Below are positions 11,054-43,317 of a DNA stretch of 44,992 bases, piece by piece; position 1 is the first letter of the stretch; every line of letters begins with the position of its first letter. Both the position numbers and the translations under genes were made by a program. The notes under the pieces are model-generated. The model was not told where the DNA came from. It saw only the letters and a program-made list of their open reading frames with translations, and searched no databases. The stretch lies in the sequence record NC_110914.1; one strand, 5' to 3'. This DNA is from a phage.

Positions 11054-11404
<351 letters not shown>

Positions 11405-11438
11405 TAACGTATTCGCGCTACATCCAAAGCGTGTTATG

Positions 11439-11472
11439 AAACAAGGGGTTAGCGAATTGCTAACCCCTTTTT
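11439..11472 (+). terminator. rplS operon rho-independent terminator
   Basis: ggggttagcgaattgctaacccc hairpin followed by ttttt immediately after rplS. Confidence 0.75.
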
Positions 11473-11547
11473 CATTGGTGGTGGCGGCAAATTGGCGGCA
11501 GAGATTGGCGCGATGGCGACAGATATAAAAAACCTGCCGAAGCAGGT

Positions 11548-33161: not shown

Positions 33162-34166
33162 ATGGGCGCGGAGATTAATATTTTGGAAACTGATTTTAAA
33201 ATAACCCTCGAAGGTTTCGCTACTGAGCAAGAAGCAAATAATATCGGTAATTTCACACTAGAAGCTATCCGAGCTTTAACAAAAAATCTCAATCTTGATA
33301 TCTCCAAATTAAAATGCGTGATTGTTTCCTATAACTTCAGTGAAGCTCTTCAAAAGGTAACATCCTCTTACCAACACAAATCCCCTAGTTCATTTACCAA
33401 TAGCAAACAGGGCGCAGCCGTCGGGCAGTTAGTAACAAAAATTGGCAATGATGGGCTATGTGAAGAATATACCCTTGTGCTATCGATTGATTTTTTTGTT
33501 GAGCTTTTCAATGATGGTAGCTTCTTAAAACTGAAAGAAGAAGGATACCTCGCAGTCATCCATCGCATTCACCATGAATTAGTGCACGTACATGAAAAAA
33601 ACTTACTAACATGCTTAGCCCAAAACTTTACAGTCAACGAGTATGGTAGCGCGCTTCTTATCTCAGCCACGCGTGCATGGTCTGAATATCTCGCTAATTA
33701 CATGTCTTCGGGGTCTGCCCCTCAAGAAACTATCGATTTATTTTTAGAGAATCTTGACACTGTTGTAAATGAAGTATCTGACGAGATTGAAAAACTCATC
33801 TGGGGTTATAAGTACGGTAATATTTCTCTGAATGACATGTATCTCGAAGTAAAAAAACGTATCAGGCTAATCATCAACTCTTATGCTTATGCGATGGGTT
33901 ATGTCCATTCTCTAAACATCAATATTAAAGAATACGATCCAAAGCTATCCCTTACACTATCCAACTCAAAGATAAGATATCAATTATCAGAATTAGGCAT
34001 TGCTTTTCAGAATCTTTATGGGAAGTTTAATGACCAGCACATTACAGGTTTTGGTGATTTTCGGGAGATAACAATAATCATTGATGAAATATTCAAGCAG
34101 TTTGGGCTTGTTTTAGAGTGTCCCGATTGGTCTGGCGACGGTGAACTCTACATACATGTAAATTAG
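33162..34166 (+). CDS. Hypothetical HExxH-motif protein (cargo gene between portal and cos)
   Basis: 334-aa AT-rich ORF with HRIHHELVHVHE (HExxH) and a Glu about 20 residues downstream (NEYG), suggestive of a zinc metallopeptidase fold. No recognised homologue from memory. Confidence 0.55.
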   Translation: MGAEINILETDFKITLEGFATEQEANNIGNFTLEAIRALTKNLNLDISKLKCVIVSYNFSEALQKVTSSYQHKSPSSFTNSKQGAAVGQLVTKIGNDGLCEEYTLVLSIDFFVELFNDGSFLKLKEEGYLAVIHRIHHELVHVHEKNLLTCLAQNFTVNEYGSALLISATRAWSEYLANYMSSGSAPQETIDLFLENLDTVVNEVSDEIEKLIWGYKYGNISLNDMYLEVKKRIRLIINSYAYAMGYVHSLNINIKEYDPKLSLTLSNSKIRYQLSELGIAFQNLYGKFNDQHITGFGDFREITIIIDEIFKQFGLVLECPDWSGDGELYIHVN

Positions 34167-34641: not shown

Positions 34642-35583
34642 ATGCAAGGTGAAGTTGACGAACAGCAACCCAATGAGATTATGTCGGAGTTTGGATACTA
34701 TCCAGTAGAAGTTAACATTGAGACTGAACAATTTTCTTTGCTTACTTTACCTGGTCTCAATGAGAAAGTGGAGCGTGTTAATAATGATAAAAACGTTGTG
34801 AAAGGTTGGATATACCCTGGAAACCAAGATGTATATAACCTTAATGGTGGCATATCCACAATGCCTTATAGTCACCGAGTATTCAGTATGCCCAAAACGC
34901 ACACACTAAAATTAAAAAATACATCCTCGTTAGAAACTCTCAACTTTATTGTGTGGTGCCTTTCTTTTTTCAAGGGAATAAGATTGACAACCACTGACGC
35001 TGGTTTTTTAGATGCAACCACTATCAAGCCCACTAAGTTAACCGACTTTATTCTCGTTGGATGCTCTGAAAAAGAAGTCATAGAACTGGCTCTTAATTAT
35101 ATAAATGGCAAACATAAGGATGCGCACTCCCCCAAAAGAATTGCGGCAGTGGTGCATGCACTATTCTTATCTCAAAACCCACAATACCTTTCTTTTGAAA
35201 AATTCCAGTACCTTTACATGGCACTTGATGGGTGCTTTGCTTTGTCGTGGGCTGAGCATGACAAGGCTCCTGATAAAAAACCGCCAAATCATTACAAGCG
35301 ATTAAAGTGGATGTGCAAAATTTATGGGTTATCAATCCCCACATGGGTGTCAGGTAAAAAAAACATTTCTGGCATCCGCAATGATAATTTTCATGAGGCT
35401 ATTTTTTTTGGTCAACCGCTTGGTTTCTCAAGTGTTAACAACAGTCAATATGGTAACGATATATTGCTGCAAATGCAGGCACTGGTATGTCGCCTATTAG
35501 CGGCAATACTGTCGGTTAATGATTGCAGTTATCTCAAATCTTCGGTCAACTCACGAGATTACCATTCATTAAAAATAAATTAA
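34642..35583 (+). CDS. Hypothetical protein with R-x4-H motif (cargo gene at the P2 old/tin position)
   Basis: 313-aa AT-rich ORF with its own AT-rich upstream region and a GGAG-type RBS; contains ...GIRNDNFHEAIFF... (R-x4-H, possibly HEPN-like). No recognised homologue from memory. Confidence 0.55.
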   Translation: MQGEVDEQQPNEIMSEFGYYPVEVNIETEQFSLLTLPGLNEKVERVNNDKNVVKGWIYPGNQDVYNLNGGISTMPYSHRVFSMPKTHTLKLKNTSSLETLNFIVWCLSFFKGIRLTTTDAGFLDATTIKPTKLTDFILVGCSEKEVIELALNYINGKHKDAHSPKRIAAVVHALFLSQNPQYLSFEKFQYLYMALDGCFALSWAEHDKAPDKKPPNHYKRLKWMCKIYGLSIPTWVSGKKNISGIRNDNFHEAIFFGQPLGFSSVNNSQYGNDILLQMQALVCRLLAAILSVNDCSYLKSSVNSRDYHSLKIN

Positions 35584-40388: not shown

Positions 40389-40760
40389 TCAGTTAAGAGC
40401 GGTGCGCTGGTCGATGTAGCGACAATCAATCGCTTGTTGAGTCAGCTTATCGCGCCATGCTTTTACGTTTACGAGGGTTCGGCTTCGTTTAGCAGCTTCC
40501 TCTTTGTTGGAAAAGTCTTTGGTCGGAGCTTTGAGAAGGACTCCCTCATCGAGCCATTGCCAGACCAGACGCTCGCTAACACCGCGAGTAGCGGCGAAGT
40601 CTTTCACAGTCATCGTGTCTGACATAGCGGAGCGAATCATTGTCTGTAGAGCTGGCAGCATGGCGGTAACGATGGCATCAAACTGTGTTGGATTTAGCAG
40701 CACAGTTTGATTTTGTGAGTTTTGCGAGTCGTGCGTCGAGATTGATTTTGCATCTGACAT
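40389..40760 (-). CDS. Apl/Cox-like excisionase/transcriptional regulator (first gene of the early operon)
   Basis: First early-operon ORF, divergent from cI, with an HTH-like segment (TVKDFAATRGVSERLVWQWLDEGVLL); true start may be an internal Met (83-90 aa). Confidence 0.55.
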   Translation of the reverse strand: MSDAKSISTHDSQNSQNQTVLLNPTQFDAIVTAMLPALQTMIRSAMSDTMTVKDFAATRGVSERLVWQWLDEGVLLKAPTKDFSNKEEAAKRSRTLVNVKAWRDKLTQQAIDCRYIDQRTALN

Positions 40761-40881
40761 ATCGCATTATCTCCTGTTGTTTGAAATGTAGTGCAGTGGT
40801 GTGCATCTTGGTCGATGAATGCCACTATAGATCGTAAAAAGTTTTCTGTAAACACCCATAAAATTATCTGTAGGGGGTTTT
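40761..40881. promoter_or_regulatory. Lysis-lysogeny switch region (face-to-face pR/pL promoters and operators expected)
   Basis: 121-bp AT-rich intergenic region between divergent cI and apl-like genes, as in 186/P2; individual promoters not mapped. Confidence 0.55.
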
Positions 40882-41742
40882 ATGAGTTCTGAGCTTGATG
40901 TTCAGTGGCGTGTTAGTGCAACGAACGGCGTATTGGAACGCTTAATGTCAGCCTATGGGGTCAAGATGCAAAAGGATTTGGCTGACCTGCTAGGTATCGC
41001 TAAACACAGCGTTAGCGGCTGGGTTCAGCGTGATGCAATACCTGGCAATGTCATAGTTAGGTGTTGTCTTGACACGGGAGCTGATATCAATTGGCTTGTA
41101 AATGGAGAGCTTGCAAATGCAAATCACGAGCGAGCCAGTTGCAAGTTAAAAGGCAAAGAGCTTTATGACGAGATTATGACGAATGGTGGTAAAACCGTTT
41201 TGCGTAGGATTCTTGATGCGTATGGCTTTACCATGCAAAAGGAGCTCGGTGATTTGCTCGGCATTTCCTCTGGCACAATTAGCACATGGGTAAGGCGAGA
41301 TTTTTTCCCTGGTGATGTTGTTGTTACATGCGCTCTTGATACCGATACGTCACTGGAATGGTTAGCAACAGGCAAGGGGCAAATGCGAGCTAACAGGGAA
41401 GATGTCACATCTGGTTTTTCTATTAAAAAATCTCGTCTTGAATCTGGTGAGCTTAAGGATGCAGGAACGTGGCATCCTGACCCCTCAATGATTCCTTCTA
41501 ACTCAGGGGAATTGATTTTTGTTGACGGTGTAGCTGCCTCTTGGCTTGTCGACTGTTCTGCTTCGAATATAAGTAATGGTCGCTGGTTAATTGATATCGA
41601 CGGCGCTCTTGATGTTTTTGATGTAATTCGTTTACCTGGTGGAAAAGTCAGGTTGTCAAATAAGTCTGCTGAGTTTGAATGCAACATTACCGACATTACG
41701 CCTGCCGGGGTTGTAGTTTTCACATTGGAAAAACACGTATAA
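40882..41742 (+). CDS. cI: CI-type immunity repressor with tandemly duplicated N-terminal HTH domain
   Basis: 286-aa ORF divergent from the early operon; two related N-terminal segments (...LERLMSAYGVKMQKDLADLLGIAKHSVSGWVQRDAIPGNVIVRCCLDTGADINWLVNGE and ...LRRILDAYGFTMQKELGDLLGISSGTISTWVRRDFFPGDVVVTCALDTDTSLEWLATGK). No LexA-like Ser/Lys cleavage motif seen. Confidence 0.7.
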   Translation: MSSELDVQWRVSATNGVLERLMSAYGVKMQKDLADLLGIAKHSVSGWVQRDAIPGNVIVRCCLDTGADINWLVNGELANANHERASCKLKGKELYDEIMTNGGKTVLRRILDAYGFTMQKELGDLLGISSGTISTWVRRDFFPGDVVVTCALDTDTSLEWLATGKGQMRANREDVTSGFSIKKSRLESGELKDAGTWHPDPSMIPSNSGELIFVDGVAASWLVDCSASNISNGRWLIDIDGALDVFDVIRLPGGKVRLSNKSAEFECNITDITPAGVVVFTLEKHV

Positions 41743-41750
41743 GGGAAATT

Positions 41751-42089
41751 ATGAAACGTAAACTCTTTTTAGCTATGCTTCTTACCTTTTCTTTTGGCTC
41801 CTTAGCCGCTGAAAAAACACAGGATTTAGATGGCGCTAAGTTTGGTGAGGATTGGCCGTTAACTTTTGAAAAAGCTACGGTGTCTTGCGTTAACGGTAAG
41901 TATGCCTTTGTATACGACAAAGCAACTGATGACCGATACCCATTAAATGGTTTTGCTATTGATGGAGTAAAGTCTGGAAAGCTTGAGGGGAGCAATATTG
42001 ATGCTGTTTGGAAAGACAGTCCAGAGTATGCAGGTGTAAAAATTCCTTTGGATCCTGTAATGGATGCCGCAACAGCACTTTGCGAATAA
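41751..42089 (+). CDS. Small secreted protein of unknown function (moron between cI and int)
   Basis: 112-aa product with signal peptide (MKRKLFLAMLLTFSFGSLAAEKTQ); start trimmed from ORF 41679..42089; co-directional with cI and int. Confidence 0.6.
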   Translation: MKRKLFLAMLLTFSFGSLAAEKTQDLDGAKFGEDWPLTFEKATVSCVNGKYAFVYDKATDDRYPLNGFAIDGVKSGKLEGSNIDAVWKDSPEYAGVKIPLDPVMDAATALCE

Positions 42090-42111: not shown

Positions 42112-43161
42112 ATGACTGTAAGTAAGCAAAAAAATGGCAAATGGTTATGCGAGCTCTATCCAAATGGTCGAGAAGGGCGGCGTATACGTCGGCAATTCAA
42201 TACCAAAGGTGAGGCCGAGGCATTCGAAGCATTTACCAAAAGCGAGAGTGAAGATAAGCCGTGGCTTGGCAAGAAAGAAGACCGCCGACGCTTAAGCGAG
42301 ATTATTCAGCTTTGGCACAATTTGCACGGTCAAGCGTTAGTCGCCAGTAAGTCGAGGTTAGCAAAGCTTCAAATCGTATGTAATGGGCTTGGTGACCCGA
42401 TTGCATCTCGCCTTACCGCGAAAGACTGGGCTCATTATCGTGACCGTCGATTACGTGGTGAAATAGACAACGGTTATCATAAAGACCCCTCGAAATGGAT
42501 CGCCAAACCTATAACCGTCAATCGCGAACAACAATACCTAGAAGCAGTGTTTAATGAGCTCCGCCGGTTAGGGGAGTGGAGCCTACCCAATCCACTTGAT
42601 GGGATCCGAGTATTCAAAGAGGCTGAGAAAGAAATGTCCTGGCTAACTTTGTCTCAGCTCCCGGAGCTGTTTCGAGCCTGCGAGCAATACGGCAAAGAAG
42701 ACCTCACCATGATTGTTAAGGTGTGCCTTGCAACCGGCGCTCGATGGGGGGAAGCGGAGAGATTGACCCGCCCTCAACTTTCTCCATATAAACTGACGTT
42801 CACCAAAACCAAAGGTAAGAAGAATCGCACAGTTCCTATTCCTAAATGGCTGTACGACGAGTTGTCCGTACGTCAAGGCAGAATGTTTAAACCCTGCTAT
42901 CAGGAGTTTAAGAAGATGCTCAAACTAACGAATATTGAATTGACGGAAGGGCAGAAGACGCACGTTTTGCGTCATACTTTTGGTGCGCATTTTATGATGA
43001 ACGGCGGGAATATACTGGTACTGCAGAAAATTCTCGGGCATGCCAATATTCGAGAAACAATGAAGTATGCACACTTTGCTCCTGACCACCTTGAACAAGC
43101 TGTAACCCTTAATCCGTTATCGCTGTATGTTGGCGACAATATGGCGGCAGAGGTTGCATAA
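42112..43161 (+). CDS. int: Tyrosine integrase
   Basis: 349-aa ORF with C-terminal catalytic region (...HVLRHTFGAHFMMNGGNILVLQKILGHANIRETMKYAHFAPDHL...) at the prophage edge next to yfiB. Confidence 0.9.
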   Translation: MTVSKQKNGKWLCELYPNGREGRRIRRQFNTKGEAEAFEAFTKSESEDKPWLGKKEDRRRLSEIIQLWHNLHGQALVASKSRLAKLQIVCNGLGDPIASRLTAKDWAHYRDRRLRGEIDNGYHKDPSKWIAKPITVNREQQYLEAVFNELRRLGEWSLPNPLDGIRVFKEAEKEMSWLTLSQLPELFRACEQYGKEDLTMIVKVCLATGARWGEAERLTRPQLSPYKLTFTKTKGKKNRTVPIPKWLYDELSVRQGRMFKPCYQEFKKMLKLTNIELTEGQKTHVLRHTFGAHFMMNGGNILVLQKILGHANIRETMKYAHFAPDHLEQAVTLNPLSLYVGDNMAAEVA

Positions 43162-43282
43162 CACTGCAATTCATTGCATTAAAAATTACTTTAACTAATT
43201 GTTTTATATGGTAAGCGTTTGTTTGTTGCGGGGTGTTAATAGGAGCGTCTTAACTAAGATTTCGCTTAAGCGACATCCTGTT

Positions 43283-43317
43283 AAGAAGGGCTGGCCAATT
43301 GGCTGGCCCTTTTTTTG
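43283..43317. terminator. Rho-independent terminator between int and yfiB
   Basis: gggctggccaattggctggccc hairpin followed by ttttttt on the plus strand and preceded by an A-run. Confidence 0.6.

What the first reader, a model, noticed from the sequence alone, without database searches (positions are those of the whole stretch)
41751..42089. Small secreted protein inserted between cI and int
A signal-peptide-bearing 112-aa ORF is co-transcribable with cI and so would be expressed in the lysogen, which is typical of lysogenic-conversion genes. I do not recognise the family.
Basis: partly seen in the sequence, partly recalled or inferred. Interest (0 to 1): 0.4.

Follow-up and report, generated by a model that had tools for sequence, protein, structure and literature searches.

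The report
Prophage YebY-like periplasmic protein gene
The small secreted-protein gene between the repressor and integrase genes of this E. coli prophage is real, but it is the already catalogued PSP3 gp28 / DUF2511 (YebY-fold) gene; its function is untested, and its fixed place right behind the phage repressor points to a job in the lysogen, most plausibly protection of the cell envelope.

Summary
Window 41751..42089 (+) is a 112-aa gene with a Sec-type signal peptide. It lies 8 nt after cI and 22 nt before int, and no promoter or terminator was predicted between them.

The family is recognisable:
- Pfam DUF2511/YebY, 2e-17.
- phrog_2950 over the full length.
- 97% identical to Salmonella phage PSP3 gp28, and 100% identical to annotated RefSeq E. 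coli genes.
- The AlphaFold model (pLDDT 90.7) matches E. coli YebY (7N0J, TM 0.91) and then MlbQ.

The host is E. coli. The prophage (~11390-43255) sits at the 3' end of rplS.

Phage 186 has nothing between cI and int, so the gene is extra relative to 186. It is not a sporadic moron, though. In all 65 related loci where the gene could be placed, it follows cI (gap 8-11 nt in 63). Eight of the nine nearest 50%-identity cluster representatives (30-57% identity) are also phage-borne, five of them directly behind an identified repressor. dN/dS is 0.08-0.27.

Function is untested. My best guess (~0.35) is a lysogen-expressed periplasmic binding protein that excludes superinfecting phage, a positional analogue of K139 Glo. 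The rivals are a brake on YebZ copper import, or binding of an envelope-active peptide.

The gene is already known and of modest interest.

The parts
40743..40771 (+). Candidate lysogenic promoter pL (TTGATT-17 nt-CATTAT), which would drive cI, the DUF2511 gene and int
   Evidence: Read from the sequence. Nearly invariant in 7 relatives: six are identical and L021 has one change in the -35. The layout matches the annotated pL of 186, with the -35 inside apl and the -10 just outside the apl ATG. It was not picked up by the stricter consensus scan. Inferred only.
40824..40852 (-). pR-like early lytic promoter (TTTACA-17-TATAGT), face to face with pL
   Evidence: Promoter scan, 10 of 12 matches. 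The hexamers are conserved in relatives.
40882..41742 (+). cI immunity repressor, 286 aa, with two tandem CI-type HTH domains and the CI C-terminal domain
   Evidence: Pfam Phage_CI_repr 1.3e-52 (2 stretches) and Phage_CI_C 1.3e-20. 98.3% identical to PSP3 cI.
41741..41746 (+). Shine-Dalgarno-like AAGGGA for the DUF2511 gene, overlapping the cI stop codon
   Evidence: Read from the sequence. The cI-stop to start distance is 8-11 nt in 63 of 65 related loci.
41751..41807 (+). Signal peptide (residues 1-19, MKRKLFLAMLLTFSFGSLA), predicted signal peptidase I site SLA|AEK
   Evidence: Hydropathy; conserved AxA|AEK in 16 relatives; low pLDDT for residues 1-20. There is no lipobox cysteine. The cleavage site is inferred.
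41808..42089 (+). Mature DUF2511/YebY-fold domain (93 aa, ~10.1 kDa, pI 4.4; Cys46 and Cys111 correspond to the YebY Cys48-Cys113 disulfide), plus the stop codon
   Evidence: Pfam PF10709 2.1e-17; phrog_2950 1.8e-52; PDB 7N0J by sequence 3.7e-7 and by fold TM 0.91, rmsd 1.2 A; composition.
42112..43161 (+). Tyrosine integrase, 349 aa, third cistron of the lysogenic operon
   Evidence: Pfam Int_N 6.6e-31 and Phage_integrase 3.3e-19; 91-99% identical to the integrases of PSP3, SW9 and Midge.
43243..43255 (.). attR core GAGCGTCTTAACT (original 3' end of rplS); its partner attL core is at 11390-11402, inside the rplS stop region
   Evidence: The only shared 10-mers or longer between the two prophage borders. 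rplS is read at 11057-11404. The same rplS|yfiB insertion site occurs in many assemblies.
43283..43314 (+). First terminator-like hairpin downstream of int (the host rplS/yfiB intergenic terminator), the likely end of the lysogenic transcript in the prophage
   Evidence: Terminator scan: 14-bp stem followed by a T run.

Best explanation
What it is (shown). The gene is the PSP3-gp28-type member of the DUF2511/YebY family. It is the second cistron of the lysogenic operon (pL)-cI-X-int of a PSP3-like Eganvirus prophage integrated at the 3' end of rplS in E. coli. Its product is predicted to be exported by a Sec signal peptide and to fold in the periplasm as a ~10 kDa, acidic, disulfide-stapled YebY/MlbQ-type alpha/beta domain.

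When it is made (inferred from anatomy and from the annotated 186 and K139 lysogenic operons). It should be made whenever CI is made: during establishment and throughout lysogeny.

What it does (inference, about 0.35). It acts as a soluble periplasmic binding protein that guards the lysogen's envelope. Most plausibly this is superinfection exclusion: it binds a component that an incoming (P2/186-like) phage exposes in the periplasm and blocks DNA entry after adsorption. That would make it a non-homologous positional analogue of Glo of Vibrio phage K139.

It belongs to a phage-borne subfamily of DUF2511 that has travelled with the immunity repressor for a long time, not to the copper-operon YebY orthologues.
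For: Identity:
- Pfam DUF2511 2.1e-17.
- phrog_2950 full length, 1.8e-52.
- 97.3% identical to PSP3 gp28.
- 100% DNA identity of the cI-X-int block to RefSeq E. coli genomes.
- Model pLDDT 90.7. The only significant PDB fold matches are YebY 7N0J (TM 0.90-0.92, rmsd 1.2-1.5 A) and MlbQ.
- Cys46 and Cys111 align with the YebY disulfide cysteines.

Operon:
- Gaps of 8 nt and 22 nt, with no + strand promoter or terminator between cI and the end of int.
- The 186 and K139 records annotate pL as driving the whole lysogenic operon.

Fixed coupling to the repressor:
- All 65 related loci where X could be placed have cI directly upstream (8-11 nt in 63). Int follows 21-24 nt downstream in 54 of 63.
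- Of the nine nearest 50%-cluster representatives whose context I could read, eight are phage-borne. Five sit directly after an identified repressor: P0019, P0020, P0021, P0024 and P0029 after CI. P0023 follows a 118-aa HTH protein that I take to be a C-type repressor (an inference). P0025 lies in a P2-like tail-gene context. P0034 is phage-borne only by analogy: it follows a BRCT/WYL protein on a 1.2-kb contig.

Functional but fast-evolving:
- dN/dS is 0.08-0.27, against 0.02-0.04 for int.
- Protein identity falls to 30-37% where int stays about 73% and cI 46-60%.
- X alleles swap independently of cI. Midge and RCIP0057 differ at cI by dN 0.003 and at X by dN 0.169.
- Host AZY YebY is much more conserved: 66% between E. 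coli and the L017 host. It is only 32% identical to the prophage copy in that same genome.

Precedent:
- K139, also Peduoviridae, has cI-orf2-glo-int, with Glo annotated as 'periplasmic protein; involved in phage exclusion' (PMC3952083 and PMC4870250).
- In some relatives the same slot also carries another signal-peptide protein (L012).

Copper site: the mature protein has no His, one Met and only the two disulfide Cys, so it has no obvious copper site of its own.
Against: - No experiment on any phage-borne DUF2511 protein was found in the paper library.
- There is no hit in PADLOC-DB, and nothing significant in the viral structure library.
- Glo is not homologous to this protein, so the analogy rests on position and compartment only.
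- Most known exclusion proteins are membrane-anchored rather than soluble (PMC3952083).
- The only tested activities in the family are modulation of YebZ copper import (YebY) and lantibiotic binding (MlbQ).
- The phage protein keeps all family-wide conserved residues: G32, W35, P36, Y63, N66, G67, A69, W87, P91. That argues for a biochemical activity shared with cellular members.
- Transcription in the lysogen and periplasmic location are predicted, not measured.
- The neighbour-joining tree that groups the phage-borne copies has no support values and rests on about 85 columns.
Confidence: 0.35

Rival explanations
1. Copper-import modulator. The prophage supplies an extra YebY-like periplasmic protein that interacts with the host YobA/YebZ (CopC/CopD) importer and damps copper uptake. 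This would change the lysogen's copper load and copper-dependent MarR signalling, which is true lysogenic conversion of host physiology.
For: - Same family and fold as E. coli YebY.
- YebY co-expressed with YebZ lowers copper accumulation and is proposed to be a 'safety valve' (PMC11923076).
- About 52% of YebY representatives are next to copC/copD (PMC8689200).
- Hosts of these prophages are Enterobacterales, several genera of which (Shigella, Salmonella, Enterobacter, Klebsiella) are reported to carry AZY-type operons.
- In one genome a prophage remnant carrying cI-DUF2511 lies right beside the host copC-copD-yebY operon.
Against: - The phage copy is only about 28-32% identical to AZY YebY. 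It also does not share the AZY-type signature: AZY orthologues have Q in place of W87 and D/N in place of G67.
- The phage subfamily evolves far faster than host YebY, which is odd for a protein that must dock on a conserved host transporter.
- The mature protein has no His, one Met and no free Cys.
- YebY's own copper binding needs reduction of the disulfide and was judged 'likely not physiologically relevant'.
- Single yebY deletion gave no reporter phenotype.
- The host already has its own yebY.
Confidence: 0.25
2. MlbQ-like immunity. The periplasmic protein binds and sequesters an envelope-active peptide or bacteriocin (a lipid-II-binding peptide, microcin, colicin domain or tailocin component), and so protects the lysogen against competitors rather than against phage.
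For: - MlbQ, the only other studied member of the fold, is proposed to confer resistance to the lantibiotic NAI-107 by direct binding (PMC8689200).
- The fold match to MlbQ 2MVO has E 4.5e-4 and TMq 0.64.
- The conserved aromatic and Asn/Gly residues are kept.
- The protein is acidic (pI 4.4), which would suit a cationic peptide ligand.
Against: - There is no lipoprotein anchor, no ABC transporter and no bacteriocin genes nearby.
- Lantibiotics are poorly active on Gram-negative cells (general knowledge).
- It gives no reason for the tight linkage to a phage repressor.
- No ligand is known.
Confidence: 0.12
3. The gene serves the phage's own lysogeny cycle, for example establishment or maintenance of lysogeny, or translational coupling that sets int expression. 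It would then be a core lysogeny gene of this lineage rather than a host-directed or defence gene.
For: - Position and spacing are invariant between cI and int (8-11 nt and 21-24 nt).
- The gene has been retained over deep divergence.
- int has a weak ribosome-binding site just after the gene.
Against: - An exported periplasmic protein is an unlikely regulator of cytoplasmic DNA transactions.
- 186 and P2 manage with cI/C directly adjoining int (186; P2: from my own knowledge of its map, not checked here).
- In some relatives other genes are inserted on either side of it without loss of the module.
- In the P0023 and P0025 contexts it occurs without an adjacent int.
Confidence: 0.06

Closest known systems
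Salmonella phage PSP3 gp28 (orf28, NP_958085; phrog_2950), with the same gene in phages SEN1, Midge, RCIP0057, SW9 and SI22
   Same: 97.3% identical protein, also 112 aa. The order cI(2xHTH)-X-int and the spacing are the same. The cI is of the same type (98.3%) and int is 91% identical. In practice it is the same gene in a prophage of E. coli.
   Different: Nothing of substance differs. The window's int is closer to that of SW9/SI22 (98.6%) than to PSP3's, which shows module shuffling. No function has been assigned in any of these records: they read 'hypothetical', 'DUF2511 domain-containing' or 'putative periplasmic protein'.
E. coli YebY (PDB 7N0J), third gene of the yobA-yebZ-yebY (CopC-CopD-YebY) operon
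   Same: Same Pfam family and same fold (TM 0.91, rmsd 1.2 A). It has the same size, a signal peptide, two Cys at equivalent positions and the conserved Trp. YebY is periplasmic and monomeric, with a Cys48-Cys113 disulfide (PMC8689200).
   Different: Only 28-32% identical. The genomic context is a phage lysogenic operon rather than a copper operon. The window protein keeps the family-consensus W87 and G67, which AZY-type YebY has replaced. It is more acidic and evolves much faster. It is a paralogous, phage-borne subfamily, not an orthologue.
Glo of Vibrio phage K139 (Peduoviridae)
   Same: It is a small protein with a signal peptide, described as soluble and periplasmic. It is encoded in the pL lysogenic operon between cI and int, immediately upstream of int, and is annotated and cited as involved in phage exclusion. 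This is the best functional analogy for 'works like'.
   Different: There is no detectable sequence similarity and Glo belongs to different PHROG families. Its fold was not compared, because structure prediction was restricted to window and database proteins. K139 has an additional BRCT-domain orf2 between cI and glo.
MlbQ (PDB 2MVO/6QFP), lantibiotic NAI-107 self-resistance lipoprotein of Microbispora
   Same: Same fold family, with the disulfide in the same place. Fold match E 4.5e-4, 25% identity. It is an extracytoplasmic binder of an envelope-active molecule.
   Different: MlbQ is a lipoprotein with a long linker, is Gram-positive and is encoded next to ABC-transporter immunity genes. The window protein has no lipobox and no such neighbours.

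Membership tests
DUF2511 / YebY family (Pfam PF10709) | Match to the family HMM above the curated gathering score | tested here: met
   63.7 bits against a cut-off of 21, E 2.1e-17, profile positions 5-87 of 87.
DUF2511 / YebY family (Pfam PF10709) | Two conserved cysteines at the positions of the YebY Cys48-Cys113 disulfide, plus the conserved Trp (YebY Trp37) | tested here: met
   C46, C111 and W35 align with the YebY residues and are invariant or nearly invariant in 103 family sequences. Actual disulfide formation cannot be tested here.
DUF2511 / YebY family (Pfam PF10709) | YebY/MlbQ fold: a four-stranded antiparallel sheet packed by helices | tested here: met
   AlphaFold model at pLDDT 90.7 with strands 22-27, 41-47, 51-56 and 62-64 plus helices. 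Foldseek TM 0.90-0.92 to 7N0J; MlbQ is the next match.
DUF2511 / YebY family (Pfam PF10709) | Extracytoplasmic location through an N-terminal signal peptide | tested here: inconclusive
   The sequence features are all present and conserved. No SignalP-type predictor and no experiment were available.
YebY orthologue of the AZY (yobA-yebZ-yebY) copper operon | Adjacent to copD/yebZ, with copC/yobA two genes away | tested here: not met
   The neighbours are cI and int. The same holds in all 65 related loci where X could be placed. A true AZY YebY in L017 is 66% identical to E. coli YebY but only 32% to the prophage copy.
PSP3 gp28 group (phrog_2950) | Full-length similarity and the synteny cI - X - int in a 186-like (Eganvirus) genome | tested here: met
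   phrog_2950 1.8e-52 over positions 1-112 of 112; 97.3% identical to PSP3 gp28; identical gene order.
Superinfection-exclusion protein of a P2-like lysogenic operon (K139 Glo type) | Encoded in the repressor-integrase lysogenic operon and exported to the periplasm | tested here: met
   Position shown; export predicted; K139 layout.
Superinfection-exclusion protein of a P2-like lysogenic operon (K139 Glo type) | Homology to Glo | tested here: not met
   BLASTP finds no alignment at E <= 100. The PHROG families differ.
Superinfection-exclusion protein of a P2-like lysogenic operon (K139 Glo type) | Expression reduces plating of superinfecting phage without loss of adsorption | not testable with these tools
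   This needs an experiment. No report was found.
Moron / lysogenic-conversion cassette | Own promoter and terminator, so that it is expressed independently of phage operons | tested here: not met
   No promoter-like or terminator-like site flanks the gene on the + strand. It is separated from cI and int by 8 nt and 22 nt.
Moron / lysogenic-conversion cassette | Patchy presence among close relatives and deviant base composition | tested here: inconclusive
   GC is 40% against about 46-57% in the neighbouring phage genes, and the gene is absent from 186. Within its lineage, however, it is present in every locus examined and at the same spot in relatives only 30-37% identical.
MlbQ-type lantibiotic immunity lipoprotein | Lipoprotein signal (lipobox Cys) and linkage to ABC-transporter or lantibiotic genes | tested here: not met
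   The cleavage region GSLA|AEK has no Cys, and the neighbours are cI and int.
Known anti-phage defence systems (PADLOC-DB 2.0) | Match to a defence-system protein model | tested here: not met
   No family at E <= 0.01.

The most novel reading that the evidence does not exclude
Phage-borne DUF2511 proteins form an old, unrecognised class of soluble periplasmic 'guard' proteins that Peduoviridae co-express with their immunity repressor. They would block DNA entry of superinfecting phages, or the action of related tailocins or bacteriocins, by binding a periplasm-exposed ligand. Ligand sequestration in the periplasm would then be the ancestral activity of the YebY/MlbQ fold. That would recast chromosomal YebY as a sequestering brake rather than a copper protein.
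Probability: 0.3. Interest if true: 0.55.

Novelty: already known. Interest (0 to 1): 0.3.

Why it matters
The gene as an object is catalogued. It is PSP3 gp28, annotated in RefSeq, and present in 68 of 5,426 complete E. coli genomes. One allele alone is indexed in about 1,900 blocks of the public-assembly index.

What this analysis adds is that the nearest relatives of the protein in a library of 1.84 billion representatives are nearly all phage-borne. Five of the eight phage-borne ones sit directly behind an identified immunity repressor. The gene evolves fast but under purifying selection.

Two things follow. First, it is a clean and cheap experimental handle on the still unexplained DUF2511/YebY/MlbQ fold: one small gene, a known phage and simple plating or copper assays. 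Second, it is a candidate for a new soluble periplasmic exclusion factor in P2/186-like phages, a group in which only K139 Glo is known at this position.

If it proved instead to brake copper import, it would be a new kind of lysogenic conversion bearing on metal stress and mar-dependent antibiotic tolerance in E. coli, Salmonella and Klebsiella.

Tried and rejected
- NCBIfam gave no family for the ORF. PADLOC-DB had no hit for it or for the neighbouring cargo ORFs. The BFVD viral structure library gave nothing below E 0.19.
- The search for homologous proteins returned only 18 close relatives because of its word index. The exhaustive representative search was needed to reach distant ones.
The narrower alignment found only 4 species-representative genomes, so a family-wide context census could not be done that way. 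Contexts were sampled through 12 encoding-contig look-ups instead.
- The repeat finder with a 12-nt seed missed the att core. A 10-mer script found the 13-bp core.
- Nesper et al. 1999, the primary paper on Glo, is not held. Glo's role is cited from the GenBank record and two secondary papers.
- Two proteomics papers mention a 'DUF2511 domain-containing protein'. One peptide is clearly host YebY and the other cannot be assigned, so neither is evidence that the prophage gene is expressed.
- The P2-phage regulatory-region papers (PMC3448106, PMC11126057) do not discuss this gene.
- I considered and rejected the 136-aa reading from the ATG at 41679 (homologue lengths, ribosome-binding site, signal peptide).
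- I rejected a lipoprotein, because there is no lipobox.
- I rejected recent capture of the host yebY: identity is 28-32%, the signature residues differ, and the host copy in the same genome is only 32% identical.
- I rejected a non-functional ORF, because dN/dS is 0.08-0.27.
- I ran no further search on AZY-type YebY orthologues. The family-wide alignment already showed which consensus residues the AZY type has lost.
Full report
**1. The observation**

The window has an ORF at exactly 41751..42089 on the + strand. It starts with ATG, ends with TAA and encodes 112 aa.

The N-terminus MKRKLFLAMLLTFSFGSLA|AEKTQ has the three regions of a Sec signal peptide: a basic n-region, a hydrophobic core (9-residue hydropathy up to 2.64) and a small-residue c-region. 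It has no lipobox cysteine.

In 16 relatives the signal peptides differ in sequence, but all end in an AxA-like motif followed by an invariant mature N-terminus A-E-(K). The AlphaFold model leaves residues 1-20 at low confidence and folds the rest at pLDDT 91-98.

The ORF starts 8 nt after the stop codon of cI (40882..41742), with AAGGGA overlapping that stop. It ends 22 nt before int (42112..43161). The consensus scan found no promoter-like or terminator-like site on the + strand between the start of cI and the end of int. The first terminator-like hairpin is at 43283-43314, beyond attR. The longer 136-aa reading from 41679 is not supported by the homologues.

**2. Where the window comes from**

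The flanks are E. coli. The yfiB-dgcN side is 100% identical to several complete genomes. The left side carries ffh-rpsP-rimM-trmD-rplS.

A 13-bp core, GAGCGTCTTAACT, occurs at 11390-11402 (the last codons of rplS) and at 43243-43255. This bounds a P2/186-like prophage of about 31.9 kb inserted between rplS and yfiB.

The cI-X-int block is 100% identical to that of at least 15 RefSeq E. coli genomes. It is present in 68 of 5,426 complete genomes, where PGAP calls the ORF 'DUF2511 domain-containing protein'.

**3. What the protein is**

- By family search it matches Pfam DUF2511 (PF10709) at 2.1e-17 and PHROG 2950 over its full length at 1.8e-52.
- By sequence it matches one solved structure, E. 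coli YebY 7N0J, at 3.7e-7. The two cysteines and the conserved tryptophan are aligned.
- An AlphaFold model built on 103 family sequences has mean pLDDT 90.7. Its only significant PDB fold matches are YebY (TM 0.90-0.92, rmsd 1.2-1.5 A) and the lantibiotic self-resistance lipoprotein MlbQ.
- It is 97.3% identical to gp28 (orf28) of Salmonella phage PSP3. It is 72-88% identical to the corresponding proteins of Midge, RCIP0057, SW9 and SI22, and phage SEN1 carries the 97.3% PSP3 allele. All lie between a 280-286-aa cI and int, and none has an assigned function.

[quoted passage not shown] No other paper in the library discusses it.

**4. Inserted moron or fixed part of the module?**

Phage 186, the type member of the genus, has cI overlapping int with nothing between them. 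Only 9 of 50,697 GenBank phage records (6 phages) carry any detectable DUF2511. At the level of the genus the gene is accessory.

Within its own lineage it is fixed.
- I examined 66 related loci: 62 IMG/VR viral contigs and 4 species-representative genomes of Enterobacter, Escherichia, Erwinia and Pantoea.
- X could be placed in 65 of them, and all 65 have cI upstream. The gap is 8-11 nt in 63.
- Int follows at 21-24 nt in 54 of the 63 loci that extend far enough.
- The exceptions carry additional cargo in the same slot. One is a 134-aa protein that also has a signal peptide (between cI and X). The other is a 166-aa cytoplasmic bPH/SHOCT protein (between X and int).

The linkage also goes much deeper than this clade. 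An exhaustive search of 1.84 billion cluster representatives found 340 family members at E <= 0.001, but only one above 40% identity. I could read the genomic context of nine of the nearest representatives.
- P0019 (57% identity): cI-X-int at a different chromosomal site.
- P0020 (37%): cI-X-bPH/SHOCT in a prophage remnant.
- P0021 (34%): a 194-aa, 186-type cI, then X, then int.
- P0024 (32%): cI-X-int.
- P0029: cI-X.
- P0023 (36%): a short HTH protein that I take to be a C-type repressor (inferred), then X, in a P2-like element.
- P0025 (31%): next to P2 tail genes D, U and T.
- P0034: behind a BRCT/WYL protein, which recalls K139 orf2. This is on a 1.2-kb contig and the phage assignment rests on that analogy.
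- P0022: next to a KAP NTPase, and not obviously phage.

A neighbour-joining tree groups the window clade with P0019, P0020, P0021, P0024 and P0029, apart from E. coli YebY. The alignment is short and the tree has no support values, so this is only suggestive.

In one genome the host's own copC-copD-yebY operon lies a few kb from such a remnant. The host YebY there is 66% identical to E. coli YebY, but only 32% identical to the prophage copy. AZY-type YebY has also lost two family-consensus residues (W87 to Q, G67 to D/N) that the phage proteins keep.

The phage gene is therefore not a recent capture of the host yebY. It belongs to a phage-borne subfamily that has long travelled with the immunity repressor.

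**5. Selection**

| Gene | dN/dS (pairs with unsaturated dS) |
|---|---|
| X (DUF2511) | 0.08-0.27 |
| cI | 0.07-0.21 |
| int | 0.02-0.04 |

 The gene is under purifying selection but evolves as fast as, or faster than, the immunity repressor. Where int stays about 73% identical, X drops to 30-37% and cI to 46-60%.

Alleles also move independently of their neighbours. Midge and RCIP0057 have nearly identical cI (dN 0.003) but very different X (dN 0.169, dS 1.67). GC is 40% over the gene, against about 46-57% in the neighbouring phage genes.

**6. Expression**

The switch region is highly conserved among relatives. It contains a pR-like promoter on the - strand (40852-40824). It also contains a candidate pL (TTGATT-17-CATTAT, 40743-40771) laid out as in 186, with the -35 inside apl and the -10 just outside its ATG.

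In the 186 and K139 records pL is annotated as driving the whole lysogenic operon. Co-expression with CI in the lysogen is therefore a strong inference, but it has not been measured. X has a better Shine-Dalgarno sequence than int.

**7. Mechanism**

Shown or strongly supported: the product is a small, acidic (pI 4.4), probably disulfide-stapled YebY-fold protein that is exported to the periplasm and made with the repressor. The mature protein has no His, one Met and no free Cys, so it is not expected to bind copper itself. YebY binds copper only weakly, and only after reduction of the disulfide, which its authors judged not physiologically relevant.

My preferred reading (about 0.35) is superinfection exclusion, or more broadly envelope guarding, by binding a ligand in the periplasm. 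The reasons are:
- the invariant coupling to the immunity repressor across deep divergence and across two probable repressor types;
- fast, allele-shuffling evolution under purifying selection, which suits a variable partner better than a conserved host transporter;
- other exported cargo in the same slot;
- the precedent of K139 Glo, a soluble periplasmic protein encoded between cI and int of another member of the Peduoviridae and implicated in phage exclusion.

Glo is not homologous to this protein, so this is a 'works like' claim and not membership of a family.

The main rival (about 0.25) is a YebY-like brake on YebZ/YobA copper import, based on the only functional data for enterobacterial members. 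A third reading (about 0.12) is MlbQ-like sequestration of an envelope-active peptide. A role in the phage's own lysogeny (about 0.06) is unlikely for a periplasmic protein. The remaining probability is for something not yet imagined.

**8. Verdict**

The gene is already known as an object (PSP3 gp28, DUF2511), and its context has been noted in the literature.

The useful additions are the depth and rigidity of its linkage to the repressor, the evidence that it is a distinct phage-borne subfamily rather than a borrowed yebY, and a concrete testable hypothesis. Interest is modest (0.3). It would rise to about 0.55 if the exclusion role were shown.

Noticed in passing
window 40882-41742: The cI repressor (286 aa) has two tandem CI-type helix-turn-helix domains (Pfam Phage_CI_repr matched twice, at about residues 13-75 and 106-169) ahead of the CI C-terminal domain. 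The cI of 186 is 192 aa with one such domain. Relatives have 280-291-aa versions, while the P0021 and P0029 contexts have single-HTH versions of 191-194 aa. An earlier paper described PSP3 CI only as having 'a longer C-terminal domain'.
   Followed up: partly
window 33162-34166 and 34642-35583 (+), between portal gene Q and replication gene A: Two cargo ORFs (334 and 313 aa) lie at the position where P2 carries old/tin; that position is from my own knowledge of the P2 map. They have no Pfam or PADLOC match, and only PHROGs of unknown function (phrog_11743, phrog_5937). They may be an uncharacterised defence or accessory module.
   Followed up: partly
L012 5570-5974 (also L013, L014, L031, L060): In some relatives a 134-aa ORF with its own signal peptide (MKRSIFALVLLTSFAVHA|QPS; phrog_3807, no Pfam) sits between cI and the DUF2511 gene. 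It is a second exported protein in the same lysogenic operon.
   Followed up: partly
L010 5168-5668 (also L011, L017-L020, L073-L076): A 166-aa cytoplasmic bPH_3/GRAM + SHOCT protein lies directly after the DUF2511 gene: between it and int in L010, L011 and L073-L076, and with no int in the L017-L020 remnants. The cI-int interval therefore acts as a small cargo slot.
   Followed up: partly
L017 / L018 1-6000: A degraded prophage (truncated integrase, cI, DUF2511, bPH/SHOCT) lies immediately beside the host copC-copD-yebY operon. That genome therefore carries two DUF2511 paralogues about 3.5 kb apart that are only 32% identical. I could not tell whether this is coincidence or a trace of how phages acquired the fold.
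   Followed up: partly
window 11390-11480 and 43243-43314: The prophage integrates into the last codons of rplS and rebuilds them (13-bp core). It supplies its own terminator-like hairpin after the rebuilt rplS (AAGGGGTTAGCGAATTGCTAACCCCTTTTT, about 11444-11473). The original rplS terminator is left at attR, downstream of int.
   Followed up: partly
window 40770-40835 (alignment A4): The roughly 65 bp between the candidate pL and pR hexamers are almost invariant in seven phages whose cI proteins are only 59-98% identical to the window's. This is unexpected if the stretch holds immunity-specific operators. It may instead hold Apl/Cox-type sites.
   Followed up: no
window 40389-40760 (-): The first gene of the early operon (123 aa, in the position of apl/cox) has no Pfam family. 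It gives only weak hits to a Cox-like excisionase PHROG (7.9e-5) and to the MADS HTH protein. It matches phrog_3554 over its full length. This agrees with an earlier remark that the PSP3 Cox/Apl is a singleton.
   Followed up: no
L098 195-1142: A distant DUF2511 gene (P0034) follows a 198-aa protein with weak BRCT/WYL matches. This is the same pairing as K139 orf2 (BRCT domain) followed by the periplasmic exclusion protein Glo. The contig is too short to tell whether it is a prophage.
   Followed up: no
L016 658-909 (phage 186 Orf69): The last gene of the 186 lysogenic operon encodes an 83-aa protein made almost entirely of LAPDGTYVGG-like repeats. It is unrelated to the finding but is an odd lysogen-expressed product.
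   Followed up: no
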